DNA of 64,000 nt, from assembly GCA_030615745.1 (NCBI GenBank), contig JAUWYR010000001.1, positions 29,959 to 93,958 on the forward strand, given 5' to 3'. The DNA comes from Candidatus Zixiibacteriota bacterium. GTDB lineage: Bacteria; Zixibacteria; MSB-5A5; SM23-73-2. The notes beneath the pieces are model-generated. The model made no database searches, had not been told where the DNA came from, and saw only the letters and a list, made by a program, of their open reading frames with translations. Below, in pieces: positions 2,567-15,151 of this stretch (position 1 is its first letter; each line of letters opens with the position of its first letter). A program made the translations under genes and the position numbers.

Positions 2567-3250
2567 ATGGACATCGCAAAACTAATAGACCATACTCTTT
2601 TGAAACCAGATGCGAAAGAAGAAGATATAAGAAAGCTTTGTGAAGAAGGAGAAAAATATGGATTTTGCTCAGTTTGTGTTAATCCCTTTTGGGTAAGCTT
2701 CTGTTATAAGTTCTTTTCAGAGTCTTGTGGGTCAAGGGTCAAGGTGTGTTCTGTTTCTGGTTTTCCTCTGGGCGCCACAAGCACTTTGATTAAATCCAAA
2801 GAGGCGGAATTGAATGTGAAAAATGGTGCGGATGAGGTTGATATGGTGATAAATATCGGAGCTTTGAAAGATAAAAACTTCAAACTTCTGGAGGATGAGA
2901 TCAAGTCGGTTAAAAGTGTGATAGGTGAGGATAAGATTTTAAAAGTGATCTTAGAGACCTGTGTTCTAACTGAAGAAGAAAAGATTGAGGGTGCAAAGAT
3001 TGTGTTGAGTTCGGGTGCGGATTTTGTCAAGACCTCAACTGGATTCGGTTCGGCTGGAGCTAAGATAGAGGATGTGAAACTTTTGAAAGAGGTTGTTGGA
3101 GATAAGATAAAAGTTAAGGCATCAGGAGGAATAAGGGATTATGAAACAGTTGTGAAGATGATAGAAGCAGGTGCTACAAGAATTGGAACTTCTTCTGGAG
3201 TGAAGATCATTGAAGAGAGAAAGAGATTTGAGAAAGAGAGATTTCAGTAG
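2567..3250 (+). CDS. deoC: Deoxyribose-phosphate aldolase
   Basis: 227 aa. IDHTLLKPDA, FVKTSTGF (Schiff-base Lys region) and KASGGIR are present. GGAGGAG RBS upstream. Confidence 0.9.
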   Translation: MDIAKLIDHTLLKPDAKEEDIRKLCEEGEKYGFCSVCVNPFWVSFCYKFFSESCGSRVKVCSVSGFPLGATSTLIKSKEAELNVKNGADEVDMVINIGALKDKNFKLLEDEIKSVKSVIGEDKILKVILETCVLTEEEKIEGAKIVLSSGADFVKTSTGFGSAGAKIEDVKLLKEVVGDKIKVKASGGIRDYETVVKMIEAGATRIGTSSGVKIIEERKRFEKERFQ

Positions 3251-3286
3251 GCAGTAAACAGTAGGCAGTAAACAGTAGCAGATAAA
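3245..3286 (+). repeat. Heptamer tandem array, 6 units CRGTARR (cagtagg cagtaaa cagtagg cagtaaa cagtagc agataaa).
   Basis: Read directly. It begins inside the last sense codon and TAG stop of deoC. Confidence 0.8.
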
Positions 3287-3373
3287 GATTTTTGGAGTGT
3301 CAAGCTTTAGCTTGACTGGATAGTGGTTCAACCCCTGTCCAAGCTGGTTAATGAATTTGAAAAAGAAAAGTTT

Positions 3374-3457: not shown

Positions 3458-4783
3458 ATGAGAGTCTACGATATAATTTCTAAAAAAAGAGACAGGGAAA
3501 AATTAAGTAAAGACGAAATAGATTTTTTTATAGATGGTTACACAAAAGAAAAGATACCCGATTATCAGATGTCAGCTTTTTTGATGGCTATATTTTTGAA
3601 TGGGATGGATATTGATGAGACAGCTAATTTAACTTTATCTATGATGAGAACAGGAAAAACCTTAGATTTAAGTGAAGTTCCTCAAGTGAAGGTTGATAAG
3701 CACTCAACTGGTGGTGTTGGTGATAAAGTATCTTTGATACTTGCACCTTTAGTTGCATCCTGCGGTTTGTGTGTTCCAATGCTTTCAGGAAGGGGATTGG
3801 GATATACTGGTGGGACTTTAGATAAATTGGAATCGATCTCTGGATTTAAGACCTCTTTTTCTCTGAAAAAGTTTGAAAAAAATCTAAAAGAGATCGGATT
3901 GTGTATAATAGGGCAGACCGAAGATATTGCACCTGCTGATAAAAAAATCTATGCTCTAAGGGATGTGACTGCAACTGTTGATTCCATTCCGTTGATAACC
4001 TCAAGCATCCTTTCAAAGAAATTAACTGAGGGAGCAGATGTGATTGTTTTCGATGTTAAGGTGGGTAATGGTGCCTTTATGAAAGATGAAGAGAAGGCGA
4101 TCTCTTTGGCTCAGACTTTAATCCAGGTGGGCAAGAGATTAAAAAAGAAAATGGTCGCGTTGATCACCGATATGAATGAGCCATTAGGGGAAGCAGTTGG
4201 AAATTCACTTGAGGTTATTGAGTCGATCGAAGCTTTGAAAGGGAATTTTCAAAAAGATTTGATGGAGGTTACTTTTGCTTTAGGTTCTTGTATGTTGATC
4301 TTGGGGAAAAGAGTAAAGAGATTTGAGAAAGCGAAAGAGATTTTAAACCAGGCGATTAAAGATGGAAAGGCTTTGGATAAGTTTAGACAGATGATTGAAA
4401 GACAGGGAGGGGATAAAAAGGTTATTGATAACTACGACCTTTTGCCCAAAGCTCAGTTTGAAATTTTAGTAAAATCTCCAAAATCTGGATATGTGAGGTC
4501 TGTTGATACTAAAAAAATTGGTTTTTCCGCAGTTGAATTAGGCGCTGGAAGGGAAAAAATTGGGGATAAAATTGATCCTGCAGTTGGATTTCTGATAAAG
4601 AAAAAAGTGGGTGATTATGTTAAAGAAGATGAGGTGATTGCTGAAATTTTTGCAAATGACAAAGAAAAAGGTGAGATTGCTAAAGAGAAGATTTTAAGTG
4701 CGTATGAAATAAGTAGGACTAAAAGTAAAAGATTAAAGAAAACACTTTATCTTGTTGATGAAAAAGGAGTTAGGAAGCTTTAA
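3458..4783 (+). CDS. pdp: Pyrimidine-nucleoside (thymidine) phosphorylase
   Basis: Tracked ORF 3434-4783. MRVYDIISKKRD..., HSTGGVGDK and SGRGLGYTGGTLDKLE are family hallmarks. The start was moved to the conserved MRVYD (3458); the 8 upstream codons lie in a repeat. Confidence 0.88.
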   Translation: MRVYDIISKKRDREKLSKDEIDFFIDGYTKEKIPDYQMSAFLMAIFLNGMDIDETANLTLSMMRTGKTLDLSEVPQVKVDKHSTGGVGDKVSLILAPLVASCGLCVPMLSGRGLGYTGGTLDKLESISGFKTSFSLKKFEKNLKEIGLCIIGQTEDIAPADKKIYALRDVTATVDSIPLITSSILSKKLTEGADVIVFDVKVGNGAFMKDEEKAISLAQTLIQVGKRLKKKMVALITDMNEPLGEAVGNSLEVIESIEALKGNFQKDLMEVTFALGSCMLILGKRVKRFEKAKEILNQAIKDGKALDKFRQMIERQGGDKKVIDNYDLLPKAQFEILVKSPKSGYVRSVDTKKIGFSAVELGAGREKIGDKIDPAVGFLIKKKVGDYVKEDEVIAEIFANDKEKGEIAKEKILSAYEISRTKSKRLKKTLYLVDEKGVRKL

Positions 4784-4861
4784 ATGTAAATCTTTTGGAG
4801 GTATTTTAATTTCCACACTAAATAGTAGGCCCACCTTGCCCTCAAGGTAGGGTAAAGATTC

Positions 4862-4994
4862 GGATGCCCCATGTTGAGGACAACATGGGGTTACCGATCA
4901 CGAGGCCATCCGTTCCTCAGGGATGTTATCATCCCCGAGAAAAAAGTTGAGTGGATGTCTACCTGGCCAGGGATATCATCTACCCCGAACAGTA
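4862..4994 (+). repeat. Mosaic intergenic repeat with modules M1-M2-M3. M1 is GGATGCCCCATGTTGAGGACAACATGGGGTTACCGAT (4862-4898), M2 is GTTCCTCAGGGATGTTATCATCCCCGAGA (4912-4940), M3 is ACCTGGCCAGGGATATCATCTACCCCGAACAGTA (4961-4994).
   Basis: Each module recurs elsewhere: M1 at 5986-6022, M2 at 15741-15770, M3 at 6048-6083 and 15788-15824. Confidence 0.8.
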
Positions 4995-5343
4995 GAAACC
5001 TTGAAAAGTTTATGAAGATAAGGCCTCAAAATGCAAACTTTAAGTTTGCTCAAAAGTTTTTTTATTTTTCAAATGTTACAGGTAAAGCTAAGACTTTTCC
5101 CTCCAGAAAAAATAGTATTGTAATCTGTTTTTCAAAGACTAATTTAAAAGGCTTGACTTTTCCTTATGAATATTTATATCATTATTTTGAGATATTGAAA
5201 ATTCTTGGATGTAAATAGAAACGACTGATTGGATATAAAAAAGATCTTATTAAAAAATTTTATTAAGGATTTTGATCTAAAGAGCACTTGAAAAAAGGCT
5301 TTTTGTCAATGTAAATTTTAAATTATAAAAAGAGGTAAACAGC

Positions 5344-5550
5344 ATGAACCAGATTATAGAAGGAATGCTTACAATTGTAAGTGGATTAAAAAAGAAAGAA
5401 CGACGCGAATTCCTTACTCGACTCATCACCTCAGGAGTTCTGAGCGAGGATGAACAGGACATATTAGTGATTGAATCGAGGAGAGGTGAACCAACTCGAC
5501 CATTAGATAAATTCGTGAAAGAGATGAGAAAGAAAGGTTGCCTCAGGTGA
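5344..5550 (+). CDS. Putative antitoxin of the RelE/ParE pair
   Basis: 68 aa. Its stop TGA (5548-5550) overlaps a GTG (5547) of the toxin frame (GTGA junction). AGAGGTAAACAGCATG RBS. Assigned from position; the family was not recognised by sequence. Confidence 0.5.
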   Translation: MNQIIEGMLTIVSGLKKKERREFLTRLITSGVLSEDEQDILVIESRRGEPTRPLDKFVKEMRKKGCLR

Positions 5551-5801
5551 GCTGGGAAGTTGAGCTTAATACTCATGCAGAACGGGAGCTCGAGAAACTT
5601 CCCGATATGATAATTCAACCGATAGTAGATCAACTAATTCGTTTAAAGAAAAATCCTTTTCCCAAAGGTGCCAGAAAACTTAAGGGACATACCGGGTACA
5701 GGCTAAGGATTGGTGAATACAGAGTCCTCTATGAGGTTGATCAAAAAGCGAAAAAAGTTATTATTTATTCCATCGGGCATCGAAGGCAAGTCTATCGATA
5801 A
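5538..5801 (+). CDS. Type II toxin, RelE/ParE family
   Basis: ...LPDMIIQPIVDQLIRLKKNPFPKGARKLKGHTGYRLRIGEYRVLYEVDQKAKKVIIYSIGHRRQVY matches the RelE/ParE pattern (R-x-R-x-G-x-YR-x-x-Y...I..I.HR). The start is TTG 5538 or GTG 5547. Confidence 0.8.
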   Translation: MPQVSWEVELNTHAERELEKLPDMIIQPIVDQLIRLKKNPFPKGARKLKGHTGYRLRIGEYRVLYEVDQKAKKVIIYSIGHRRQVYR

Positions 5802-5985
5802 TATCTGCTTTTTTTGAATTAAAAAATTTACAGCAAGCAGAGGATAAATAGCTTTAAGCGTTTTTGTAATTTTAAAGTTTTTTTTAAAAAGCCAAATTTA
5901 TAAGAGGAAACTTAGAAGTAGAAAGCTTCGGCTCTACCTTTAAGACCTTCAAAAAAGATTTCGTCTGGCAAACCTCAAAAGGTTT

Positions 5986-6092: not shown

Positions 6093-6398
6093 CTAAAGCC
6101 TCTGTTTATATTTTTCTGTCACAACAGGATTTTTTTTAATATCGATTATAGAGCAGAACTTTTCGAATAATTTTCCGATTTCTGGATTCTGGTCAACTTT
6201 TTTCCTTATCTTTTCAAAGTGCTTTTTATCTTTAAATTTATTGATCTCCATCCAGATATTTTCTCTTCCTTGTTTTTTGTAAACCTCATAGGCAATGCAT
6301 CCAGTTTTTACATAAATAGCTTTAACTGTTCTTTGTAATTTAATATAATCCTTTATCTTACTCTTGGGAACTTTATAAGTATATGTAACGATAAACAT
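6093..6398 (-). CDS. Small ABM-like (dimeric alpha/beta barrel) protein, last gene of the metal island.
   Basis: Tracked ORF 6093-6542 trimmed to the ATG at 6398, which is preceded by AAAGGAGAAAAT. The fold call comes from size and pattern only. Confidence 0.45.
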   Translation of the reverse strand: MFIVTYTYKVPKSKIKDYIKLQRTVKAIYVKTGCIAYEVYKKQGRENIWMEINKFKDKKHFEKIRKKVDQNPEIGKLFEKFCSIIDIKKNPVVTEKYKQRL

Positions 6399-6429
6399 AT
6401 TTTCTCCTTTTTGTCCCCGAAGCTTGAGC

Positions 6430-6591
6430 TTATTTTTTTCTTTTCTTATCAAAAATATACTTCTTAGGTTCTTTTTCAAACTCCGACTGACATAAAGGAC
6501 AACAGAGATAGTAGATCTCACCTTGATAAAAAATCTTAGCATAGGCTTTATTGGGATTCATTCTCCTTTTACAAACTGGATCATAGTGCAT
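6430..6591 (-). CDS. YHS-domain metal-binding mini-protein (53 aa), not in the ORF track.
   Basis: Hand translation: MHYDPVCKRRMNPNKAYAKIFYQGEIYYLCCPLCQSEFEKEPKKYIFDKKRKK*. The pattern DPVC-x-M...Y-x-G-x-x-YYFCC-x-x-C...F matches YHS/TRASH. GGAGAAAG RBS. Confidence 0.65.
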   Translation of the reverse strand: MHYDPVCKRRMNPNKAYAKIFYQGEIYYLCCPLCQSEFEKEPKKYIFDKKRKK

Positions 6592-6636
6592 AACTTTCTC
6601 CTTTAAGTTTTATTATGTAAGCTTACATCAAATATC

Positions 6637-6801
6637 TTAATCTTTTTGTTCTTTTGGTTTTTTCATATATTTCTCTGGCTCTTTCTCGAATTCAGATTTA
6701 CACAACGGACAGCAGGCTAAATAATCCTTTCCTTTATATTTCAGAGAAAGGTAAGCTTTCTCTTTATCAATCTGGGCATTGCAAACTATGCATCTATCCA
6801 T
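6637..6801 (-). CDS. Second YHS-domain mini-protein (54 aa), not in the ORF track.
   Basis: Hand translation: MDRCIVCNAQIDKEKAYLSLKYKGKDYLACCPLCKSEFEKEPEKYMKKPKEQKD*. AAGGAGGTG RBS upstream. Confidence 0.65.
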   Translation of the reverse strand: MDRCIVCNAQIDKEKAYLSLKYKGKDYLACCPLCKSEFEKEPEKYMKKPKEQKD

Positions 6802-6827: not shown

Positions 6828-7166
6828 TCAGAGTGCGGCTTCGCCTTTTTCTCCAGTGCGGATTCGAATAGCTGTCTCCACCGGGGAGATAAAAATCATG
6901 CCATCTCCCTTAGAGCCGGTATAGGAACTACCGCTGATCACCTGCACCAGACGGTCAACATCTTTGTCCGCACAGACCACCTCTAACTTAGTTATATCCC
7001 AGTATCTTTTGGTGATACTCTCATCGGTGGTAAAATAGTTGGGATCGAATCCATAGCCCACAGGGTGCACGGTGACCACAGTGATTCCCGGCGCTTTTGC
7101 CTCCTCCAATGCCTTTACCGTTCTTTCTAAGACCTCTGTTCGGATATAGGCTTTTATCTCTTTCAT
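6828..7166 (-). CDS. P-II-like (GlnB-fold) protein of the kind found beside heavy-metal RND pumps.
   Basis: 112 aa. MKEIKAYIRTEVLERTVKALEEAKAPGITVVTV... has P-II beta-alpha-beta spacing but no canonical T-loop Tyr context. AGGAGGAACAA RBS. Confidence 0.65.
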   Translation of the reverse strand: MKEIKAYIRTEVLERTVKALEEAKAPGITVVTVHPVGYGFDPNYFTTDESITKRYWDITKLEVVCADKDVDRLVQVISGSSYTGSKGDGMIFISPVETAIRIRTGEKGEAAL

Positions 7167-7391
7167 TTGTTCCTCCTGTTAAAGCGTAATGTAAATTTTC
7201 ATCTTAACCATGATTTTGATTTCTGGTTTTTTCTTCTTTGAATCTTAAGCTACCAGAGGCTCAAATTTTTAGGTCGAAAGAGTAGGAAATGTTCAGAAAT
7301 ATTTTTTTTCAATCAATAGTTTTATCTGCTCCAAGCTCTTTCCCTGCACAAACCAGTTGAAGGCATCACGGCCCTCGTCATTACATTCTCT

Positions 7392-7691
7392 TCAGGTGGG
7401 AGGACATCTTCCCTTGTAGCAAACATCCAGATACTCTCCACAACAAGGGCAGGGAATCTCAGATACGATATCTGGAATCTCTTTTAGAAGGAAGCTATAT
7501 AGTTCTGAGCCATCCGGTGGAAGTGTCAATCGGGAGAGACGTTCCCTCCGGTTATCAAGACCGTCAGCATTTTGAAAAAGATACAGAGTTAAAATTACGA
7601 TCGCAAAAACTCCCAGAAGGCTCAATAGGGTAAACATTTTTCGCCTTTTCCCTTTTTTAAAGCCTTTCTTTTTTTCTTCTTTGAAATTCAT
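7392..7691 (-). CDS. Membrane-anchored Cys-rich protein (CPCCGEYLDVCYKGRCPPT). The frame continues past the TGA to 7293.
   Basis: 99-aa tracked ORF with one TM helix (FTLLSLLGVFAIVILTLYLF). 32 further stop-free codons follow the TGA in frame (see findings). Confidence 0.55.
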   Translation of the reverse strand: MNFKEEKKKGFKKGKRRKMFTLLSLLGVFAIVILTLYLFQNADGLDNRRERLSRLTLPPDGSELYSFLLKEIPDIVSEIPCPCCGEYLDVCYKGRCPPT

Positions 7692-7761
7692 TATAAAGAC
7701 AGTTCACTCCTTTCTTTGATGTCATCACAAAAGATAGATAAACAGATCCTAATTTGCCTTG

Positions 7762-7787
7762 AGGGAGGGTCGTTTCCGGCCCTCCCT
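7762..7787 (-). other. Intra-operon stem-loop AGGGAGGG(TC) / (GG)CCCTCCCT just 3' of the DUF3347 gene.
   Basis: Read directly. There is no U-tract, so it is more likely a processing or stability hairpin than a terminator. Confidence 0.4.
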
Positions 7788-7799
7788 TAAAGTCAAAAT

Positions 7800-8387
7800 C
7801 TATTTACCTTCCATTTCCTTCATATGCATTGCGGGCTCGGATTCGCCACCAGCTTCTTCGATGAATTTCCCGTTCTGCGTCATCCCGGTCATTTCTCCAC
7901 ACTTATACATCTTGGAGCCGTAGTAGGGGTTGCCTATCTGATCATTTTCCTGTAGCCAGCTTTCTTTTATCATGGAGCAGTGAAAACTGTAAGCTTTGCC
8001 TGAAAAACCGAACCATTTGACATAATCTATCGTAGCCTGTGAAAGGGAAGCAAATCCTTTACGCGCCTCTTCCAGATTACCAGCTTTCAAATTAGATGAG
8101 CTGGTTTGAATCCGCTCTAAAGCTTTAATCAGGTTTCCCAGCTGGACTGACATCTCCTGAGCATGGGTGCTCACCTGGTCGACTTTATCCTGGGCTAAAA
8201 GCTCCCGAATGGCAAAATAGTGTTTGAAAATTTCAGCCATCTCATCTGATGTGGTGACTTCTTCTTTTGCCGAAGCTTCCAAAGGCTTTTCCTCAGATTT
8301 CTGATCTGCCAAAACGGGACTTGAAAAAATTCCCAAAATGAATAAACCCAAGGTTAAAATGACGGTTAATTTAATCTGTTTTTTCAT
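7800..8387 (-). CDS. Secreted DUF3347-like metal-island protein
   Basis: 195 aa with a signal peptide. The C-terminal ...FHCSMIKESWLQENDQIGNPYYGSKMYKCGE resembles the DUF3347 signature (C-x-M...WLQ...I-x-NPYyG..M..CG). Confidence 0.6.
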   Translation of the reverse strand: MKKQIKLTVILTLGLFILGIFSSPVLADQKSEEKPLEASAKEEVTTSDEMAEIFKHYFAIRELLAQDKVDQVSTHAQEMSVQLGNLIKALERIQTSSSNLKAGNLEEARKGFASLSQATIDYVKWFGFSGKAYSFHCSMIKESWLQENDQIGNPYYGSKMYKCGEMTGMTQNGKFIEEAGGESEPAMHMKEMEGK

Positions 8388-8491: not shown

Positions 8492-11400
8492 TTAATCAGA
8501 TTTAGTATCTTCTTTTTCTGTCTCCTCTTTTAAACTCCAGCCCTTGACAATTGCATATATGGCTGGGATTATTATCAAAGTCAGGACAGTGGAGCTAATT
8601 AGTCCCCCTACCATGGGAGAGGCCATTCGCTTCATCACCTGTGAGCCGGTGCCATGTCCGATCATTAAAGGAAGAAGACCGATCATGGTGGTAACCACAG
8701 TCATAAGCTTTGGTCTAACCCTTTCCACCGCTCCCTCGATTATGGCTGAATGTAAATTAGATAGGGTATTAAGTTTTCCTTGTCGCTTAAAACGATGATA
8801 AGCTTCTTCCAAATATACCAACATCACCACACCCGTCTCGGCTGCCAGTCCACCCAGAGCGATAAAACCCACATACACAGCTACACTGGTATTGAACCCC
8901 AAAAAATACAACAACCACACTCCACCCACCAGAGAAAAAGGTAAGGAAAGCATAACTGTCAGGCTGTTGGTCATATTTTTGAAATGGAAGAACAAAAGTA
9001 AAAAGATGATGATGATAGTAATAGGAATAACAATTCTGAAACGCTTAGCAGCTGCCTGCATATATTCGTATTGTCCACTCCAGATGATATTATAGCCGGC
9101 TGGGATGTCTATCTCTTGGGCTACCACCTGCTGAGCTCTTTTGACATAAGTTCCCACATCGATTCCCTTAATATCAACATAAACCCAGGCAGTTCGCCGG
9201 GCGTTTTCTGATTTGATAGCAGGTGGTCCCTTTTTTATCTCGATATCAGCTACCTGAGTGATGGGGATTTGTGCTCCGGTTAGCGTGGGTATTAAGATCC
9301 TTTTTAAGCTGTTGAGGTCGTCGCGCAGTTCTCGAGGGTAGCGAACGTTAACCGGGTAGCGTTCCAACCCCTCAATGGTATAGGTCACATTCATACCCCC
9401 AACCGCAGACATGATCACATCCTGAACATCCCCTACCGTCAGTCCATACCTCGCTGCCTCCTCCCTTTTGATCTTATAATCCAAATAATTGCCGCCCACT
9501 ACTCTTTCAGAGTAAACAGAAAGTGTCCCTGGGACTTTTCTCACTACGGCTTCTATTCGTTCCCCTATGGCGGATAGGGTGTCAAGGTTTGCGCCCATTA
9601 TCTTGATTCCCACAGGGGTCTTGATCCCAGTGGAAAGCATGTCAATCCTGGTTTTAATAGGCATAGTCCAGGCATTGGTTAGTCCCGGAAACTGTATAGC
9701 CTTATCCAGCTCATCCACCAATTTTTCTGGAGTCATCCCGGGACGCCACTCTTCCTCTGGCTTTAACATTATGGTAGTTTCAATCATGGTCAAAGGAGCT
9801 GGGTCGGTTGCAGTCTCTGCTCTTCCGATCTTGCCGAAAACAGTTTTTACCTCAGGAAATGAAGCAATGATTTTATCCGTCTGTTGGAGGAGTTCCTTTG
9901 CTTTGGTGATTGATATTCCGGGAAAAGTCGTAGGCATATAAAGTAAATCGCCCTCATAAAGTGGAGGCATGAATTCAGAGCCCAACTTGGAAGCGGGATA
10001 GAAGGTTATGCCTAAAATGATTATAGCCGCTAAAATGGTTAGCCACTTGAAACGTAGCACCAATTTGATGAAGGGCATATAAAGGGCTATGAAAAAACGG
10101 GAGATGGGATTTTTCTTCTCCGGCAGGATTTTCCCCTTTATCACCACCACCATCAGAGCAGGAATTACGGTGATGGCAAGCAGAGCTGCGGAAGCCATAG
10201 CAAAGGTCTTAGTATAAGCCAGCGGCTTGAACAGCCTTCCAGACTGCTCCCCTAAGGCAAAGACCGGGAAGAAGGAGACGGTTATAATTAAAAGTGCATA
10301 AAAAAGGGCTGGACCCACCTCTTTGGCCGCATCCATTATAATTTGCCAGTGCTCCTTTTTCCCCTTATCCCGTTCCAAATGTTTATGAGCATTTTCCACC
10401 ATCACCACTGAAGCATCCACCATCACTCCTATGGCAATGGCAATTCCTCCCAAGGACATGATGTTGGCATTTATTTTCAGATAGTTCATGACGATGAAAG
10501 ACATCAAGACCCCGGCTGGTAGGGTGAACATAGCTACTAAAGCGCTTCGGGCATGTAATAAGAAAATCATACAGATCAAGGCTACCACGAGGATCTCCTC
10601 GATCAGCTTTCCTTTCAAGTTGTTTATAGCCCGATATATGAGCCCGGAACGGTCATAAACCGGTTTGATCTTCACCCCAGGAGGCAAACCTGGTTTCAGT
10701 TCGTCTAACTTCTTTTTAACGTTTTTGATCACCTCTAAGGCGTTTTCGCCAAAGCGCATCACAATTATTCCCCCCACCACCTCCCCTAAGCCATCCTTTT
10801 CCGCAATTCCTCGACGAAGCTCAGGACCAATTTTGATCTGAGCAACGTTTCTTAATAGAATTGGGGTCCCGTCCTGGTCTATTCCCAAAGGAACATTTTT
10901 TAAATCCTCAATGGATTGAATATAGCCCAATCCTCTCACCATGAATTCGGCCTCGGCCATCTCTATCAAACGGCCGCCCACATCGCTGTTAGACCTCTTT
11001 ATAGCCATCTTCACTTTGGAAAGTGGAATGTTATATGCTAAAAGCTTGTTCGGATCAACCTCCACCTGGTATTGTTTAACATATCCCCCTACCGAGGCGA
11101 CCTCAGAAACACCTGGAACAGAGGTTAGCTCGTATTTTAAATACCAGTCCTGAATGCTGCGCAGATCAGAAAGATCCAGATTCCCGCTTTCATCCTCCAC
11201 CGTGTATTCATACACCCACCCCACCCCGGTAGCATCGGGTCCTAGCTGAGGAGTTACCCCTGGGGGCAGACGCCCAGAGATAAAGCTTAAATACTCCAAG
11301 ACCCGAGAGCGAGCCCAATAAAGATCGGTGCCATCCTCAAAGATGATATAGACAAATGAGAAACCAAAGAAGGAGTATCCTCTGACTACCTTGGCATAGG

Positions 11401-11629
11401 GAACAGAAAGCATAGCGGTGGTCAGAGGATAGGTAACTTGATCCTCCACCACCTGAGGAGCTTGACCCGGGTATTCGGTATAAATTATCACCTGCACATC
11501 CGAAAGGTCAGGGATGGCGTCTAAAGCGATGTTTTGGATTGCATACGCTCCTCCCAGAAAAACGAATATCGCTACAAGGAAGATGATATACTTATTCCTG
11601 ATCGAATATTCTATGACCTTTTCAACCAT
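8492..11629 (-). CDS. cusA: Heavy-metal efflux RND permease, CusA-like (monovalent Cu/Ag type)
   Basis: 1045 aa. TM4 reads GGIAIAIGVMVDASVVMVENAHKHL, which resembles CusA (AxxxMVDAxxVMxENA) rather than the CzcA D-x5-D-x6-E relay. Confidence 0.88.
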   Translation of the reverse strand: MVEKVIEYSIRNKYIIFLVAIFVFLGGAYAIQNIALDAIPDLSDVQVIIYTEYPGQAPQVVEDQVTYPLTTAMLSVPYAKVVRGYSFFGFSFVYIIFEDGTDLYWARSRVLEYLSFISGRLPPGVTPQLGPDATGVGWVYEYTVEDESGNLDLSDLRSIQDWYLKYELTSVPGVSEVASVGGYVKQYQVEVDPNKLLAYNIPLSKVKMAIKRSNSDVGGRLIEMAEAEFMVRGLGYIQSIEDLKNVPLGIDQDGTPILLRNVAQIKIGPELRRGIAEKDGLGEVVGGIIVMRFGENALEVIKNVKKKLDELKPGLPPGVKIKPVYDRSGLIYRAINNLKGKLIEEILVVALICMIFLLHARSALVAMFTLPAGVLMSFIVMNYLKINANIMSLGGIAIAIGVMVDASVVMVENAHKHLERDKGKKEHWQIIMDAAKEVGPALFYALLIITVSFFPVFALGEQSGRLFKPLAYTKTFAMASAALLAITVIPALMVVVIKGKILPEKKNPISRFFIALYMPFIKLVLRFKWLTILAAIIILGITFYPASKLGSEFMPPLYEGDLLYMPTTFPGISITKAKELLQQTDKIIASFPEVKTVFGKIGRAETATDPAPLTMIETTIMLKPEEEWRPGMTPEKLVDELDKAIQFPGLTNAWTMPIKTRIDMLSTGIKTPVGIKIMGANLDTLSAIGERIEAVVRKVPGTLSVYSERVVGGNYLDYKIKREEAARYGLTVGDVQDVIMSAVGGMNVTYTIEGLERYPVNVRYPRELRDDLNSLKRILIPTLTGAQIPITQVADIEIKKGPPAIKSENARRTAWVYVDIKGIDVGTYVKRAQQVVAQEIDIPAGYNIIWSGQYEYMQAAAKRFRIVIPITIIIIFLLLFFHFKNMTNSLTVMLSLPFSLVGGVWLLYFLGFNTSVAVYVGFIALGGLAAETGVVMLVYLEEAYHRFKRQGKLNTLSNLHSAIIEGAVERVRPKLMTVVTTMIGLLPLMIGHGTGSQVMKRMASPMVGGLISSTVLTLIIIPAIYAIVKGWSLKEETEKEDTKSD

Positions 11630-11631
11630 AG

Positions 11632-13386
11632 CTATTTGCTCCTTTTTTTAGATTCCAGTTTTATTAACTCCATGCCGCACTCCGGGCATTTCCCTGGCAC
11701 ATTAGAAAGGATATGATGATGCTCCTCCATGGGACAGGTATAAACATCTCTGTCCGTTTCGGTGATTGGCACCAAATCCATCCCGCATTCAGGACATTTA
11801 CCCGGTCCTACCTGAAGTATATGACTATGCTCATCCATTGGGCAGGTGTAGACCTCCTCGGCATACTCTGCCTTTTTTTCAGGGGTAAGATTCAGATTCT
11901 TGACCTCAAGCTGTGCACCCTCATGAACATGCTCCTCTTCTTTTTTTATAACCGGTATCCTTTCCACTTCAACCTCTTTTGAAGTGTCCATCTTAGCCTT
12001 AATCATCTTTTGAATTGCTTCTTGGGTCTTGCTTTCAGAATCGAGCATGAACTGAGCGGAGACTACCACCACTTCATTCGGAAGAAGTCCTTCTTTAACC
12101 GCCAGGACCCCTCCCTCACCACTAACTCCGGTTATGATTTCTCTGGGTGTATATTTCCCCTCACCTATATCCACAAAAACTATCTCCCTTTTACCTGACC
12201 GAATCACCGCCTCCTCGGGAATCAGAGTTCTTTCCCCGGAGAGCTCAGATTCAATTACCACATTAGTATACATATCCGGCTTGAGTTTGAATCCGGGATT
12301 GGAAAACTCCAGGCGCACCTTTACATCACGTGTCTTTTGACTTAAATAAGGATAGATGTAGGTTAATTTTCCCTCGAAGGTCTCACCTGGAACATAGGGC
12401 AAAGTTATGGTGGCTTTCTGTCCCAGCTTTATATAGGGGAGCTCATATTCATAGATCGTGGCTAACACCCAAACGGTTGAAAGATCAGCTATCCGGAAAA
12501 GATCTGATCCTGCTTTAACATAACCTCCTTCGATAGCGTTTTTATGGATCACTACCCCTTTTGTTAGTGAATAGATGGTCAAAGTTTTTTTGACCTCCCC
12601 GGTTTGTTCCAATCTTCTGATCTGGTCTTCATTGATATCCCAGTATTCTAACCGCCTGCGTGAGGAATTCAGAAGTTCTAAGGCACCCTCTCTGGCTTCC
12701 TTAAAGGGGCTATCTTTAAGTTCTTGATAGCCCTTCAAAGAGGTTAAATATTCTTCCTGAGTGCTGACCAACTCCGGTGAATATAATTCCAGAAGTGGTT
12801 GCCCTTTTTCCACCACCTCCCCAGTGGTGTTTACATAAAGTTTCTCGATCCAACCTGCGATTTTGGTGTTAATGATGTAAAGCTTCTTCTCATCGTAATC
12901 GATATGTCCCACAGTTCGGATGGTGCGGGTCAAATTACCGGTTTTAACCGGTGCAGTTCTGAGACCCATATTTTGAACAGTAACAGGGTCTATAAAGATA
13001 GCACCCTCTGCTATCTCATCTTCATAAACAGGTATCAAATCCATTCCCATGGGAGATTTGCCTGCCTTATCCGAAATATAAGTTGGGTCCATGGGCGCTC
13101 GCCAGTATTTGATTTTTCGCTCTCCTTTGGGTTTAGTGGTGCCAGCAGAGGCACTTTTAATGGGGGTCAACTTCATTCCACAGACAGGACAGTTCCCTGG
13201 TCCCTCTTGAATTATCTCTGGATGCATACCACAGGAATAAAGTTGCTTAACAGAAGCCTCTCCCATTTGGACCAAATCCTTCGGACCAGAGGATCTTTTT
13301 CCCATTAAGAAGCCTAAAGCAACCCCAACGGTCAAAGTTAGAATTGCCACCAAAATGATTGTAAGCAATTTTGTTTTCTTTTGCAT
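11632..13386 (-). CDS. cusB: RND periplasmic adaptor (CusB-like) carrying three heavy-metal-binding YxCxMH...CPxCGM modules
   Basis: Tracked ORF 11632-13434, start moved to ATG 13386 (AAAGGAGAGAG RBS). Modules: YSCGMHPEIIQEGPGNCPVCGMKL (N-terminal), YTCPMDEHSHILQVGPGKCPECGMDL and YTCPMEEHHHILSNVPGKCPECGMEL (C-terminal). Confidence 0.85.
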   Translation of the reverse strand: MQKKTKLLTIILVAILTLTVGVALGFLMGKRSSGPKDLVQMGEASVKQLYSCGMHPEIIQEGPGNCPVCGMKLTPIKSASAGTTKPKGERKIKYWRAPMDPTYISDKAGKSPMGMDLIPVYEDEIAEGAIFIDPVTVQNMGLRTAPVKTGNLTRTIRTVGHIDYDEKKLYIINTKIAGWIEKLYVNTTGEVVEKGQPLLELYSPELVSTQEEYLTSLKGYQELKDSPFKEAREGALELLNSSRRRLEYWDINEDQIRRLEQTGEVKKTLTIYSLTKGVVIHKNAIEGGYVKAGSDLFRIADLSTVWVLATIYEYELPYIKLGQKATITLPYVPGETFEGKLTYIYPYLSQKTRDVKVRLEFSNPGFKLKPDMYTNVVIESELSGERTLIPEEAVIRSGKREIVFVDIGEGKYTPREIITGVSGEGGVLAVKEGLLPNEVVVVSAQFMLDSESKTQEAIQKMIKAKMDTSKEVEVERIPVIKKEEEHVHEGAQLEVKNLNLTPEKKAEYAEEVYTCPMDEHSHILQVGPGKCPECGMDLVPITETDRDVYTCPMEEHHHILSNVPGKCPECGMELIKLESKKRSK

Positions 13387-13402
13387 AAAGCTCTCTCCTT
13401 TT

Positions 13403-14728
13403 TTATAGTAATGATTTGCCCACCATCTCCTCAAGTCTGGCGATGGTTTTGAAATAAGAACTCAAAGCCTGATGATGGGCTATCTCATAATTGAAAAGGG
13501 TCACCTGATTGTTTAGCAAAGTCAGAAAATCGACTTTATTCACCTGATAGCCAGACTTGGCGGACTCAAGGGACTGCCGAGCTTGAGGCAGGATAGCGGT
13601 CTGGTAAAGTTGGACTTCTTTTTTGAATTTGTTCAAGGAATAAAATAACTTCGACACCCCAAGCTTCACATAATTTTCGCCACCCTCATATTCTTGACGG
13701 GACGATTCTAAATCTAAAGATTTTTCCTGAACCTTTTTTTTCTGTTTAGACCAAAAGTAAAGCGGGATATTTATACCCGCAGAAAAAGAGACGAAATCCT
13801 TTCCTTTTACTGGATCCATCTTTACCTCATCTCTGATCCGGTAACTGGCTGATAAGGTGAAATCGGGCCAATACTCCCGGAGAGCTAAATCATAAGCTGA
13901 CTGAGATGCACTCACAAAAAACCCTTTTCCCTTTAAATAAGGATTGGTTTCTAAGGCTAAGCTTTGCAACTTCTCCTCGGAATAAGGGAATTCTTGGAAA
14001 GTTAAATCTGAAGCTTTCCCTAATGAATCCTGCGGATTCCGATTGAGCAGAATGTTTATCTTGGCCTGAATGATTTTTCTCATCTCCTCTAAGGAAATAA
14101 GTTTATCTATCATCTTGGAGACCTCCACTTGAGCTTTCAGAACATCCTGCTGGATTCCTCTGCCTACCGAATATTTGGTGGAAGCTATGCGAGCAAGATC
14201 TTCTATTAGCAATTTGTTCTTCTGGGTAATCTCAATCGATTTCTGCAATAGGTAAAGTTGATAGTAATTTTGTTTCAGTTCACTCAGGATGAAGTTTTTA
14301 GTGGATTTATAGCCTTCCTTTGTTTTTTGGGCTAAACTTCTGGTGGTTTTCTCGGCAAGCCCCAGCTTTCCCGGGAAGGGGATTTTCTGAGTTAGCATCA
14401 ACTCCAGTCCGCTCATGGGAGTCTGATCGAAAGACCAGGAATCTATGGGTAGATTGGAGCCTACCATTTTGAAAAAAGGATCGGGAAGTGATCCAGCCTG
14501 AGGCACCTTTGCCTCAAAGGCTTTGTAGCGAAGTTCAGCAGCTTTCAGGTCCGGATTGGCTCTGAGAGCTTCAGTGATCAGGGAATCTAAGATTAGCTCT
14601 TGTGCCAGGCTCGGCTGCGACATTAGTGTGAGAAGGCTCAAACAAATTGCCAGCCCACACCTAAAAAAAGATAGTCTCAATTTAACCTCCTTAAGTAAAA
14701 GACAAAAACACCCCCAAAGGGGCAACAA
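13403..14728 (-). CDS. cusC: TolC-family outer-membrane factor of the efflux pump
   Basis: 441 aa. Two-repeat OMF pattern (LSLDSLITEALRANPDLKAAE..., ...LALETNPYLK...) and a signal-like N-terminus. The exact start is uncertain. Confidence 0.8.
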   Translation of the reverse strand: MLPLWGCFCLLLKEVKLRLSFFRCGLAICLSLLTLMSQPSLAQELILDSLITEALRANPDLKAAELRYKAFEAKVPQAGSLPDPFFKMVGSNLPIDSWSFDQTPMSGLELMLTQKIPFPGKLGLAEKTTRSLAQKTKEGYKSTKNFILSELKQNYYQLYLLQKSIEITQKNKLLIEDLARIASTKYSVGRGIQQDVLKAQVEVSKMIDKLISLEEMRKIIQAKINILLNRNPQDSLGKASDLTFQEFPYSEEKLQSLALETNPYLKGKGFFVSASQSAYDLALREYWPDFTLSASYRIRDEVKMDPVKGKDFVSFSAGINIPLYFWSKQKKKVQEKSLDLESSRQEYEGGENYVKLGVSKLFYSLNKFKKEVQLYQTAILPQARQSLESAKSGYQVNKVDFLTLLNNQVTLFNYEIAHHQALSSYFKTIARLEEMVGKSLL

Positions 14729-14755: not shown

Positions 14756-15151
14756 TTAAATAAGAAAAGATGAATTAAGAAGATATAAGGGTGGGTCTCT
14801 GTTAAGGAGCACAAAAGGATAAGGATACAAGTTCGTAAGCTGGCTGGAATGATATTGGGTAATAAGTTCGACCTCCGATGTCAGCAAAATGGTCTTAGGT
14901 TTACCATCCTGGTGGGAAACAAGAACTGCAGGGGGACTCTCTTGTTTAGGATTTTCACTCATCTGACAGGGGCATTCGTTCTGCTCCATACCATTAGTTG
15001 GTGAGGGCTGAAAATAGCTCTCACAGCAGCAACAGGTGTTTTGCGATATGTCAGCTTTTTCGCAGGGGTCTCCAGAAACAGGTACAAAAAATAAAATGCT
15101 AACTATTAGAAGCAGTGCGATTTTTCCCACCATTTTTCTTTGTATCCTCAC
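14756..15151 (-). CDS. Secreted Cys-rich hypothetical protein, first gene of the efflux operon
   Basis: 131 aa with a signal or TM segment, then DPCEKADISQNTCCCCESYF...NECPCQM. No family recognised. It sits 27 nt upstream of cusC. Confidence 0.45.
   Translation of the reverse strand: MRIQRKMVGKIALLLIVSILFFVPVSGDPCEKADISQNTCCCCESYFQPSPTNGMEQNECPCQMSENPKQESPPAVLVSHQDGKPKTILLTSEVELITQYHSSQLTNLYPYPFVLLNRDPPLYLLNSSFLI

What the first reader, a model, noticed from the sequence alone, without database searches (positions are those of the whole stretch)
7293..7691. In-frame TGA giving a UxxC motif in a Cys-rich membrane protein of the copper island: candidate selenoprotein, readthrough or pseudogene
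Seen: the tracked ORF ends ...IPCPCCGEYLDVCYKGRCPPT at TGA (7392-7394). The same frame stays open for 32 more codons (RECNDEGRDAFNWFVQGKSLEQIKLLIEKKYF, stop at 7293-7295). Reading TGA as Sec gives ...CPPT-U-R-E-C..., a UxxC motif. A small hairpin GAGGGC-CGUGAU-GCCUUC (7359-7376, minus-strand sense) begins 15 nt after the UGA. Known: bacterial Sec insertion uses a SECIS stem-loop immediately 3' of UGA, and UxxC/CxxU motifs typify thiol-oxidoreductase-like selenoproteins. From memory (unverified), the tail GKSxEQI...KKY and the Cys pattern resemble CcmH-like or PCYCGC-motif proteins, which have a CxxC at this position. Inference: the true product may be a 131-residue periplasm-facing redox or metal-handling selenoprotein. 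Thirty-two stop-free codons in AT-rich DNA is suggestive only, and the hairpin is short.
Basis: partly seen in the sequence, partly recalled or inferred. Interest (0 to 1): 0.65.

Follow-up and report, generated by a model that had tools for sequence, protein, structure and literature searches.

The report
Selenocysteine protein in copper-efflux operon
The apparent stop codon inside this small membrane-anchored, cysteine-rich gene of a copper/silver efflux operon is almost certainly read as selenocysteine, giving a 132-residue protein of a selenoprotein family that is already catalogued but whose branch here is annotated as truncated in public databases.

Summary

- **Recoding:** The minus-strand gene 7691..7296 has an in-frame TGA at 7394-7392. 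In 15 distinct homologous DNA sequences the same codon is always TGA. It is always followed by 32 codons under purifying selection (dN/dS about 0.07-0.10).
- **Cys homologues:** full-length homologues carry Cys at that column (CPxxCxxCN).
- **SECIS:** a hairpin (GARGGC-CGKGAY-GCCUUC, 7376-7359) meets the published bacterial SECIS rules. Its stem is frozen at synonymous sites while surrounding codons drift.
- **Machinery:** the genome carries selC-selD-selA-selB on one contig.
- **Family:** the protein is a remote member of the CYCXC / OS_HP4 / PCYCGC superfamily. It scores 31 bits against NF041379 (cut-off 90) and does not hit PF13798. That superfamily is already listed as a UxxC selenoprotein family.
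- **Fold:** profile comparison and a confident AlphaFold model suggest a CcmH-like helical core, with the Sec motif in an inserted segment.
- **Context:** the gene travels with CusA/CusB-type efflux genes in two different gene orders.

The likely role is periplasmic Cu(I)/Ag(I) handling or copper-linked thiol redox chemistry; this is inferred, not shown. The result corrects an annotation and is not a new kind of system.

The parts
7296..7691 (-). Full selenoprotein coding sequence: 132 codons including Sec100. The true stop is TGA 7295-7293.
   Evidence: The full-length reading is conserved in 15 homologous DNA sequences.
7392..7394 (-). Sec codon UGA (residue 100), first position of the U-R-E-C (UxxC) motif.
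   Evidence: TGA in 15 of 15 homologues. Cys at this column in all full-length homologues. No variant in public contigs.
7359..7376 (-). SECIS hairpin: 5' arm GAGGGC (7376-7371), loop CGUGAU (7370-7365), 3' arm GCCUUC (7364-7359). There are 21 nt between the UGA and the loop.
   Evidence: MFE -8.7 kcal/mol. It meets the bSECIS rules quoted in PMC13188914. Stem codons are frozen (GGC 15/15, TTC 15/15, GCC 14/15), and every change seen either keeps pairing or lies in the loop.
7575..7637 (-). Single N-terminal transmembrane anchor (residues about 19-39), preceded by a Lys/Arg-rich cytoplasmic tail (residues 1-18).
   Evidence: Sequence read directly. AlphaFold helix 15-53. Homologues replace the anchor by lipoprotein signal peptides.
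7296..7520 (-). Extracytoplasmic Cys/Sec-rich helical domain (residues 58-132) with C81, C83, C84, C91, C96, U100 and C103.
   Evidence: pLDDT 96-98 over this part. Cys invariant at 81, 83, 84, 91, 100 and 103; position 96 is Cys, Met or His only. hhalign to CcmH.
7707..7713 (-). Shine-Dalgarno-like AAAGGAG, 15 nt upstream of the ATG.
   Evidence: Read. Not tested further.
7800..8387 (-). Upstream neighbour: DUF3347 protein with a signal peptide. Conserved partner in the cluster.
   Evidence: Pfam PF11827, 28.6 bits. Adjacent in 9 homologous loci.
8492..11629 (-). CusA/CzcA-family heavy-metal RND pump.
   Evidence: TIGR00914, 1246 bits.
11632..13434 (-). CusB-like adaptor with four HMBD metal-binding modules.
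   Evidence: PF16576, PF19335 in 4 stretches, NF007303.
13403..14728 (-). Outer-membrane efflux factor.
   Evidence: PF02321.
6828..7166 (-). Downstream neighbour: P-II-fold protein. Conserved partner, 85-89% identical across loci.
   Evidence: PF00543, 61.8 bits.
6430..6801 (-). Two small YHS-domain (metal-binding) genes.
   Evidence: PF04945.

Best explanation
The gene at 7691-7296 (minus strand) encodes a 132-residue selenoprotein. UGA 7394-7392 is decoded as selenocysteine by SelB and tRNA-Sec, directed by the hairpin at 7376-7359, which lies inside the coding sequence. The product has a cytoplasmic Lys/Arg tail, one membrane anchor and an extracytoplasmic helical domain. That domain is a divergent member of the CYCXC / OS_HP4 / PCYCGC superfamily and has a CcmH-like core. 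It carries six Cys plus Sec100, and Sec100 sits at the N-cap of a helix in a UxxC motif. The gene is an accessory of a CusCBA-type Cu(I)/Ag(I) efflux operon. Its most likely job (inferred, about 45%) is to bind periplasmic Cu(I)/Ag(I) through the selenolate/thiolate site (U100, C103, C96 and the C81/C83/C84 loop) and pass the metal to, or buffer it for, the pump. In that role it would stand in for a CusF-type chaperone, which this genome lacks. Shown here: the recoding signature, family membership at superfamily level, the export topology by homology, and the gene linkage. Inferred: metal binding and hand-over.
For: **Recoding**
- TGA at the same codon in 15 of 15 distinct homologues, including ones only 45-60% identical.
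- The tail has dN/dS 0.07-0.10, like the upstream part.
- Cys homologues carry CPxxCxxCN.
- Of the 50%-identity clusters of this clade, 23 end exactly at the Sec column and about 12 are full-length Cys forms.

**SECIS**
- 6-bp stem, 6-nt loop with G at position 2 followed by U or G, 21 nt from the UGA, MFE -8.7 kcal/mol. This fits the bSECIS model.
- Synonymous sites are frozen in the stem, whereas 20 of 20 other invariant residues drift (Fisher p = 0.033). GAA/GAG and GCC/GUC changes keep pairing.

**Machinery**
- tRNA-Sec, selD (itself with a UGA), selA and selB lie on contig C32.

**Family**
- NF041379 'CYCXC family (seleno)protein', E 1.9e-7.
- The A1 profile reaches PF13798 members.
- The review PMC13188914 lists this family as UxxC with one Sec.

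**Fold**
- AlphaFold pLDDT 91.
- hhalign to E. coli CcmH gives 78-93% probability, against at most 0.6% for reversed or shuffled controls.
- CcmH 2kw0 is the only compact Foldseek match, and it is a weak one.

**Copper link**
- CusA/CusB/OMF, DUF3347, P-II-fold and YHS neighbours.
- Cus genes are adjacent in 14 of 17 loci, in two different gene orders, and also next to a Cys form in a Deltaproteobacteria MAG beside a multicopper oxidase.
- Position 96 is only Cys, Met or His across 42 superfamily members.
- No CusF is present in the genome.
Against: - No protein-level evidence exists (no Se labelling, no peptide).
- The hairpin alone is not statistically unusual (z = -0.9). It shows only one-sided changes and no double compensatory changes, because the sequences are close.
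- The protein is below the curated cut-offs of NF041379 (31 bits against 90) and PF13798 (no hit). Its first motif is CxCC, not CxCxC.
- Metal binding is inferred only from residue types and neighbours.
- The CcmH relationship, a UxxC at a helix N-cap and the general rule that Sec sits in redox sites fit a thiol/selenol oxidoreductase equally well.
- Model coordinates could not be inspected, so the geometry of the seven Cys/Sec residues is unknown.
- Two loci (L007, L032) show no Cus gene within the sequence available.
Confidence: 0.85

Rival explanations
1. It is a real selenoprotein, but its chemistry is redox and not metal carriage. It would be a membrane-tethered periplasmic thiol/selenol-disulfide oxidoreductase. 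This would resemble CcmH, or the Scs/DsbC-type proteins needed for copper tolerance. It would reduce Cu(II) to Cu(I) for the pump, or repair copper-induced non-native disulfides and Cu-thiolate adducts on envelope proteins.
For: Homology to the CcmH core. The UxxC sits at the N-cap of helix 101-115, the classic position for a redox-active pair. Most bacterial selenoproteins with UxxC are redox proteins, as stated in PMC13188914 and PMC2398784. About two-thirds of this clade uses Sec, which suggests a catalytic advantage.
Against: CcmH's own CxxC aligns with C81xxC84, not with the Sec motif. Seven conserved chalcogen or His/Met positions are more than a dithiol oxidoreductase needs. Position 96 alternates among Cys, Met and His, which cannot all form disulfides but all bind Cu(I). 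No thioredoxin-like reductant partner (DsbD/ScsB/CcdA) was seen in the cluster.
Confidence: 0.3
2. The TGA is a genuine stop. The product would be the 99-residue protein, and the downstream 32 codons would be a separate small gene or non-coding sequence.
For: Gene callers and GenBank annotate it that way (P0003 is a 100-aa 'hypothetical protein'; one JGI contig calls the tail as a separate 32-aa ORF). Some termination at UGA is expected when selenium is scarce.
Against: The tail has no conserved start codon: its first codon is R, I, M, K, Q, V or L. It stays in frame in 15 of 15 sequences and is under purifying selection at the protein level. In Cys homologues it is contiguous with the upstream part, and it holds two of the three core helices and two invariant Cys columns.
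Confidence: 0.03
3. The UGA is read through as another residue (Trp, Cys or Gly by near-cognate or suppressor decoding, or an alternative genetic code), not as Sec.
For: Sequence alone cannot distinguish the inserted residue. One fragmentary relative (P0043) has Gly at this column.
Against: The same gene ends in TGA in 10 of the first 11 homologues tabulated (the other ends in TAA), so TGA is a normal stop in these organisms. The column is Cys in all non-TGA full-length homologues. A conserved SECIS-type hairpin lies at the right distance, and a complete sel gene set is present.
Confidence: 0.03

Closest known systems
CYCXC family (seleno)protein = 'hypothetical protein OS_HP4' (NCBIfam NF041379; listed under Pfam PF13798 PCYCGC in PMC13188914 and PMC9312934)
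   Same: A small exported Cys-rich domain with six invariant Cys columns and the C-terminal G-K-S-x-x-E-I...Y helix pair. One Sec sits in a UxxC motif at the second Cys pair. Function is unknown.
   Different: It scores 31 bits against a 90-bit cut-off and gives no PF13798 hit. Its first motif is C-x-C-C instead of C-x-C-x-C. It lacks the G-H-x-S segment. It has Cys (CPxT) where classic members have His or Met four residues before the Sec/Cys column. It has a membrane anchor and is fixed inside Cus-type efflux operons. This clade is mostly Sec forms and is annotated as truncated in public records.
CcmH (Pfam PF03918; E. coli N-terminal domain, PDB 2kw0), the periplasmic thiol reductant of apocytochrome c
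   Same: A membrane-tethered periplasmic small helical bundle. A CxxC lies in the loop after helix 1, and the following helices share the G-K-S-x-x-E-I...R-Y-G signature. hhalign probability is 78-93%.
   Different: It is not part of a Ccm system: no PF03918 hit in this genome, and the neighbours are Cus genes. It carries an inserted segment with C91, C96 and U100xxC103 that CcmH lacks. Foldseek similarity is not significant (E 4.5).
CusF (PF11604), the periplasmic Cu(I)/Ag(I) chaperone of E. coli CusCFBA
   Same: A small periplasmic accessory protein encoded within a CusCBA-type operon. This genome has no CusF, so it is a candidate functional analogue.
   Different: There is no sequence or fold relationship. 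CusF is a beta-barrel using Met/His/Trp ligands, whereas this is a helical Cys/Sec protein. The analogy is inference only.
Other predicted metal-related bacterial selenoproteins (YHS-domain, CopZ-like, MerP/MerT-like, HMA-domain; table in PMC13188914)
   Same: Sec replaces a Cys in a probable soft-metal ligand set, in genes associated with heavy-metal resistance.
   Different: They have different folds and families. None has been characterised biochemically either.

Membership tests
Bacterial selenoprotein gene (SelB/SECIS-dependent UGA decoding) | In-frame UGA conserved among orthologues, with a conserved coding sequence after it | tested here: met
   TGA in 15 of 15 sequences. The 32-codon tail is conserved, with dN/dS 0.07-0.10.
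Bacterial selenoprotein gene (SelB/SECIS-dependent UGA decoding) | Cys-containing homologues aligned at the UGA column | tested here: met
   P0012, P0014-18, P0024, P0037 and others. The column is Cys in all 33 rows of A3 that are not UGA forms; the 9 UGA-form rows (window and loci) were entered with UGA read as Cys.
Bacterial selenoprotein gene (SelB/SECIS-dependent UGA decoding) | bSECIS stem-loop: 4-16 bp stem, 3-9 nt loop with G in its first two positions, 16-37 nt from UGA to loop, MFE at or below -7.5 kcal/mol (PMC13188914) | tested here: met
   6 bp, 6 nt (CGUGAU), G at position 2, 21 nt, -8.7 kcal/mol. Conserved with frozen synonymous sites. The single-sequence z-score is only -0.9, and no double compensatory change is seen.
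Bacterial selenoprotein gene (SelB/SECIS-dependent UGA decoding) | selA, selB, selC and selD present in the genome | tested here: met
   Contig C32: tRNA-Sec 3203-3300, selD 3594-4520 (with its own UGA), selA 4856-5938, selB wing domain 7725-7862.
Bacterial selenoprotein gene (SelB/SECIS-dependent UGA decoding) | Selenium demonstrated in the protein | not testable with these tools
   Needs 75Se labelling or mass spectrometry.
NCBIfam NF041379 OS_HP4_CYCXC (CYCXC family (seleno)protein) | Score at or above the curated cut-off of 90 bits | tested here: not met
   31.1 bits, E 1.9e-7, residues 70-131 against model positions 22-89. 26.6 bits in the six-frame search. Classic member P0066 scores 90 bits.
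NCBIfam NF041379 OS_HP4_CYCXC (CYCXC family (seleno)protein) | C-Y-C-x-C first motif | tested here: not met
   The window has C81-P-C83-C84. The third Cys aligns only with a one-residue gap.
NCBIfam NF041379 OS_HP4_CYCXC (CYCXC family (seleno)protein) | Sec/Cys in a UxxC/CxxC motif before the G-K-S...E-I...Y helices | tested here: met
   U100-R-E-C103. These columns are invariant Cys in the superfamily alignment. That the catalogued family's Sec is this same column is inferred: it is the only CxxC of the domain, and the review gives the motif as UxxC.
Pfam PF13798 PCYCGC | Score at or above the gathering threshold of 25 bits | tested here: not met
   No hit at E up to 10 for the window protein. 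26 of 42 members of the superfamily alignment hit it. Intermediates P0024 and P0037 link the two groups.
CcmH (PF03918) | Match to the family model | tested here: not met
   No PF03918 hit for the window protein; 3 of 42 relatives hit, at E 0.18 or weaker. Only profile-level similarity is seen: hhalign 78-93% against controls of at most 0.6%.
CcmH (PF03918) | Part of a Ccm (system I) cytochrome c maturation gene set | tested here: not met
   The neighbours are Cus, DUF3347, P-II-fold and YHS genes. No PF03918 match anywhere in the genome. Other ccm genes were not searched.
CusF-type periplasmic metallochaperone (functional class) | Binds Cu(I)/Ag(I) and transfers it to CusB/CusA | not testable with these tools
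   Only context supports it: Cus linkage in 14 of 17 loci, no CusF in the genome, and ligand-type residues.

The most novel reading that the evidence does not exclude
This mostly Sec-using clade would be a selenolate-based periplasmic Cu(I)/Ag(I) carrier built on a CcmH-like fold. It would be a functional replacement for CusF that feeds or buffers metal for CusCBA-type pumps, with Sec100, Cys103 and Cys96 as direct metal ligands. That would make it one of the first bacterial selenoproteins in which selenium serves as a transport ligand for copper, not as a redox catalyst. It would also link the unexplained PCYCGC/CYCXC superfamily to both copper homeostasis and the CcmH lineage.
Probability: 0.3. 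Interest if true: 0.6.

Novelty: new member of a known kind. Interest (0 to 1): 0.33.

Why it matters
**Annotation.** The gene and all its close relatives are called as roughly 100-residue truncated hypothetical proteins. The curated NF041379 and PF13798 models miss this clade. Selenoproteome counts therefore miss it, and a rebuilt model would recover at least about 23 sequence clusters.

**Biology.** The fixed association of a mostly Sec-using, exported Cys-rich protein with Cu/Ag RND efflux genes gives a concrete, testable function to a family that has none. The profile-level link to CcmH suggests where the fold came from.

None of this changes the known picture of selenocysteine decoding.

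Tried and rejected
- **Rfam.** A scan of 7200-7500 at a permissive threshold gave only chance-level hits and no SECIS family.
- **Foldseek.** A search of the confident model against the PDB gave nothing significant, with best E 4.2. CcmH 2kw0 appeared only as a weak second match.
- **PDB sequence-profile search.** It gave only a designed zinc fibre (E 4.9e-4, short helix) and CcmH at E 0.62.
- **Single-sequence fold statistics.** These do not support the hairpin (z = -0.9), so the argument rests on comparative data.
- **More divergent DNA for true covariation.** The first attempt failed because the alignment was too diverse. The second attempt gave 6 loci, in which the stem is still nearly identical, so no double compensatory change could be shown.
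- **A curated-family Sec member for direct column comparison.** None exists in this phylum.
- **Origin of the name OS_HP4.** The GOS paper (PMC2398784) and the Olavius symbiont paper (PMC1976440) do not mention OS_HP4 in their main text. The family-level claim therefore rests on the two review tables and the NCBIfam name.
- **CcmH-model hits with an in-frame TGA in the same class (L034, L036).** In L034, the only one in which my check found the ORF, the TGA lies after the domain, so it is simply the stop codon; the check found nothing in L036.
- **Pseudogene, separate small ORF and non-Sec readthrough.** All were considered and rejected for the reasons given under the rival explanations.
Full report
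**1. The observation**

On the minus strand an ORF starts at ATG 7691-7689. It reads MNFKEEKKKGFKKGKRRKMFTLLSLLGVFAIVILTLYLF...IPCPCCGEYLDVCYKGRCPPT and meets TGA at 7394-7392. The same frame continues for 32 codons (RECNDEGRDAFNWFVQGKSLEQIKLLIEKKYF) to a second TGA at 7295-7293. Folded alone it has an MFE of -8.7 kcal/mol, but this is not unusual for the composition (z = -0.9; 42 of 200 shuffles fold as well).

**2. Comparative evidence for recoding**

A search of 5.8 billion proteins returned ten close homologues of 100-105 residues. All of them end at the same place (...CPPT, CPFT, CPHT, CPPA, CAPT). One 123-residue homologue reads CPPT-C-GP-C-N at that place.

I fetched the DNA of the truncated ones, plus further loci from genome and metagenome collections.
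- In 15 distinct sequences the codon is always TGA.
- It is always followed, in frame, by xECN[DQE]EGRDAFxW[FY]xxGKSLxEIKxLIxxKYF and a stop.
- Identity to the window protein goes down to 45%.
- For pairs where dS can be estimated, the tail has dN/dS of 0.07-0.10, the same as the 29 codons upstream of the TGA. It is therefore translated.
- Its first codon varies (R, I, M, K, Q, V, L), so it is not a separate gene with its own start.
- The gene's real terminator is also TGA in 10 of the first 11 homologues tabulated (the other uses TAA), so TGA is an ordinary stop in these organisms.
- Contigs of public runs, including the probable source sample and a related strain, show no variant at 7392-7394. 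The variants they do show in the hairpin are GAG to GAA and CGT to CGG, both structure-neutral.

**3. The SECIS element**

[quoted passage not shown] Here the stem is 6 bp, the loop is C-G-U/G-G-A-U/C, the spacing is 21 nt and the MFE is -8.7 kcal/mol.

The stem is encoded by Glu-Gly and Ala-Phe codons.
- Across the 15 sequences Gly is GGC 15/15 and Phe is TTC 15/15.
- Ala is GCC 14/15. The one exception is a non-synonymous GUC, which turns a G-C pair into G-U.
- Glu alternates between GAA and GAG, giving A-U or G-U.
- The only other changes lie in the loop (CGU/CGG, GAU/GAC).
- By contrast, all 20 other degenerate codons with an invariant amino acid show synonymous variation (Fisher p = 0.033).

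This is nucleotide-level constraint on top of protein constraint. There are no double compensatory changes, so this is conservation evidence and not covariation evidence. Rfam has no matching family.

**4. Sec machinery**

The genome is 2.28 Mb and 98.6% complete. Contig C32 carries:
- tRNA-Sec (anticodon tca) at 3203-3300;
- selD at 3594-4520, which itself has an in-frame UGA in the usual G-U-x-x-K position with a downstream hairpin;
- selA at 4856-5938 (470 bits);
- a SelB winged-helix domain at 7725-7862

.

**5. What the protein is**

Pfam gives nothing for the window protein. NCBIfam gives one hit: NF041379 'OS_HP4_CYCXC, CYCXC family (seleno)protein', E 1.9e-7, 31 bits against a cut-off of 90.

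A profile of the clade searched against 1.84 billion representatives found 58 proteins.
- 23 clusters stop exactly at the Sec column.
- About 12 are Cys forms of the same clade.
- The more distant hits are classic PCYCGC proteins (PF13798 up to 80 bits, NF041379 up to 90 bits) and a 'GIRCxCGCA...SLLSCYE...GMAxxCxxCQGEGR' group.

In a 42-sequence alignment the Cys columns 81, 83, 84, 91, 100 (the Sec column) and 103 are invariant. Position 96, four residues before Sec, is Cys in 22 sequences, Met in 12 and His in 8, and nothing else.

[quoted passage not shown] The only CxxC in the classic domain is the one aligned with U100-x-x-C103. The Sec position here is therefore, by inference, the catalogued one. 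The gene is a sub-threshold, divergent member of a known selenoprotein family. In this clade the first motif is CxCC and not CxCxC, and Cys replaces His/Met at position 96.

**6. Fold and relationship to CcmH**

AlphaFold2 with the 42-sequence alignment gave pLDDT 91 (96-98 over residues 50-132). The model has a long helix 15-53 (anchor plus stalk) and helices 62-71, 73-76, 88-95, 101-115 and 120-131. Sec100 sits at the N-cap of helix 101-115.

- Foldseek against the PDB found nothing significant. The only compact match was the E. coli CcmH N-terminal domain, 2kw0 (target-normalised TM 0.51, rmsd 2.8 Å over 60 columns, E 4.5).
- Profile comparison of the alignment with E. coli CcmH residues 1-126 gave probability 93.4% and E 2.5e-7.
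- My local rerun gave 78%, against 0.2% for the reversed sequence and at most 0.6% for 30 shuffles.

The alignment puts CcmH's C43-P-K-C46 on C81-P-C83-C84, and CcmH's GKSKKEIVDYMVARYG on GKSLEQIKLLIEKKYF. The segment C91...C96-P-P-T-U100-R-E-C103 is an insertion relative to CcmH. The protein is not a CcmH: there is no PF03918 hit, no CcmH anywhere in this genome, and no ccm neighbours.

**7. Topology**

The first 18 residues carry ten Lys/Arg. Residues 19-39 are hydrophobic. The flank after the helix is nearly neutral, which predicts an N-in, C-out orientation. In homologues the anchor is replaced by lipoprotein signal peptides (for example ...MLTNC in L033 and ...SLTAC in P0036). In the distant group it is replaced by twin-arginine signals (for example LSRRRFL in P0059). 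The domain is therefore extracytoplasmic throughout the family.

**8. Context**

The window's gene string on the minus strand is: Cys-rich ORF, OMF (PF02321), CusB-like adaptor with four HMBD modules, CusA/CzcA RND pump (TIGR00914, 1246 bits), DUF3347, the selenoprotein, a P-II-fold protein, two YHS proteins, and an ABM-like protein. No terminator-like site lies between 6000 and 8500.

tblastn of these neighbours against 17 homologous loci found Cus-cluster genes next to the gene in 14 of them, and in two different arrangements:
- CusB-CusA-DUF3347-gene-P-II;
- gene-OMF-CusB-CusA, in the divergent marine loci L030, L031 and L033.

A Cys form in a Deltaproteobacteria MAG sits after a multicopper oxidase, CusB and CusA. 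Linkage that survives rearrangement and crosses phyla argues for a functional tie.

The gene is rare in its own phylum: 3 of 285 genomes hold it, all with the TGA. This fits an accessory, probably mobile, island. The genome has no CusF.

**9. Mechanism**

Shown here: UGA recoding signals, an exported Cys/Sec-rich domain, and linkage to the Cu/Ag efflux operon.

Inferred: the domain handles periplasmic Cu(I)/Ag(I). Two readings compete.
- **Metal carrier or buffer (about 45%).** Seven conserved soft-ligand positions are far more than a dithiol enzyme needs. Position 96 is restricted to Cys, Met or His, which are all Cu(I) ligands but not all disulfide partners. YHS and HMBD neighbours are present, and CusF is absent.
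- **Thiol/selenol oxidoreductase (about 30%).** This is supported by CcmH ancestry, a UxxC at a helix N-cap, and the general use of Sec in redox catalysis. It also fits the known need for periplasmic disulfide repair under copper stress; that last point is established knowledge of DsbC/Scs systems and was not tested here.

The two readings are not exclusive.

**10. Comparison and novelty**

Family-level selenoprotein status is already published and has a curated NCBI model. Earlier notes of this scan reached the same verdict for relatives in at least eight other genomes. Those are AI notes and not independent evidence.

What is modestly new here:
- this clade falls below both curated thresholds and is mis-annotated as truncated (for example P0003, a GenBank 'hypothetical protein' of 100 aa);
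- it is mostly Sec-using;
- it is fixed in Cus operons;
- the superfamily shows a profile-level link to CcmH, which I did not find mentioned in the searched literature.

Verdict: a real selenoprotein gene, a new member of a known kind, of moderate-to-low interest.

Noticed in passing
window 7760-7786 (minus strand), between the DUF3347 stop (7800) and the selenoprotein start (7691): A strong G+C-rich hairpin, GGGAGGG-CCGGAAACGA-CCCTCCC, sits in the 108-nt spacer and is not followed by a T run. The terminator scan did not call it. It may be an mRNA-processing or stability element, or one of the repeat modules other first-stage notes describe around the island.
   Followed up: no
window 6828-7166 (minus strand) and loci L003, L006, L008, L010, L012, L020, L021, L028: The P-II-fold protein downstream is 85-89% identical across loci in which the selenoprotein is only 62-84% and DUF3347 only 62-69% identical. 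It is the most conserved accessory gene of the cluster, and its role in a metal-efflux operon is unexplained.
   Followed up: partly
proteins P0054, P0059, P0060, P0062, P0063, P0068, P0069 (distant 'GIRCxCGCA...GMAxxCxxCQGEGR' clade): These distant superfamily members carry twin-arginine (Tat) signal peptides, whereas the window's clade uses membrane anchors or lipoboxes. Tat export implies folding, and possibly cofactor or metal loading, in the cytoplasm.
   Followed up: no
G000 contig C32: 3203-7862: The Sec machinery is one compact cluster, tRNA-Sec, selD, selA, selB. SelD is itself a selenoprotein (UGA at C32:3624) with a GUU-loop hairpin about 26 nt downstream.
   Followed up: partly
protein P0043 (56-aa fragment from the representative library): A close relative reads ...GGCPFT-G-RECNDEGRDAF..., with Gly at the Sec column (GGA instead of TGA would be a single-base change). 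It could be a sequencing error, a decayed copy or a real Gly variant.
   Followed up: no
window 6093-6542 versus 6430-6591 (minus strand): The longest ORF call for the ABM/DUF1428-like gene (149 aa) overlaps the second YHS gene. The ABM domain starts at residue 49 (MFIVTYTYK...), so the real start is probably near 6398.
   Followed up: no
phylum-wide search; loci L024, L025 (also fetched as L020, L021): Only 3 of 285 genomes of the phylum carry the gene, while near-identical Cus clusters (CusA up to 92% identical) occur on unrelated metagenome contigs. The island looks horizontally mobile.
   Followed up: partly
window 14756-15151 (minus strand): The operon-leading 131-aa Cys-rich ORF has no hit in Pfam or NCBIfam, and no tblastn match to it appeared in any homologous locus at E <= 1e-4. 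It remains unassigned.
   Followed up: partly
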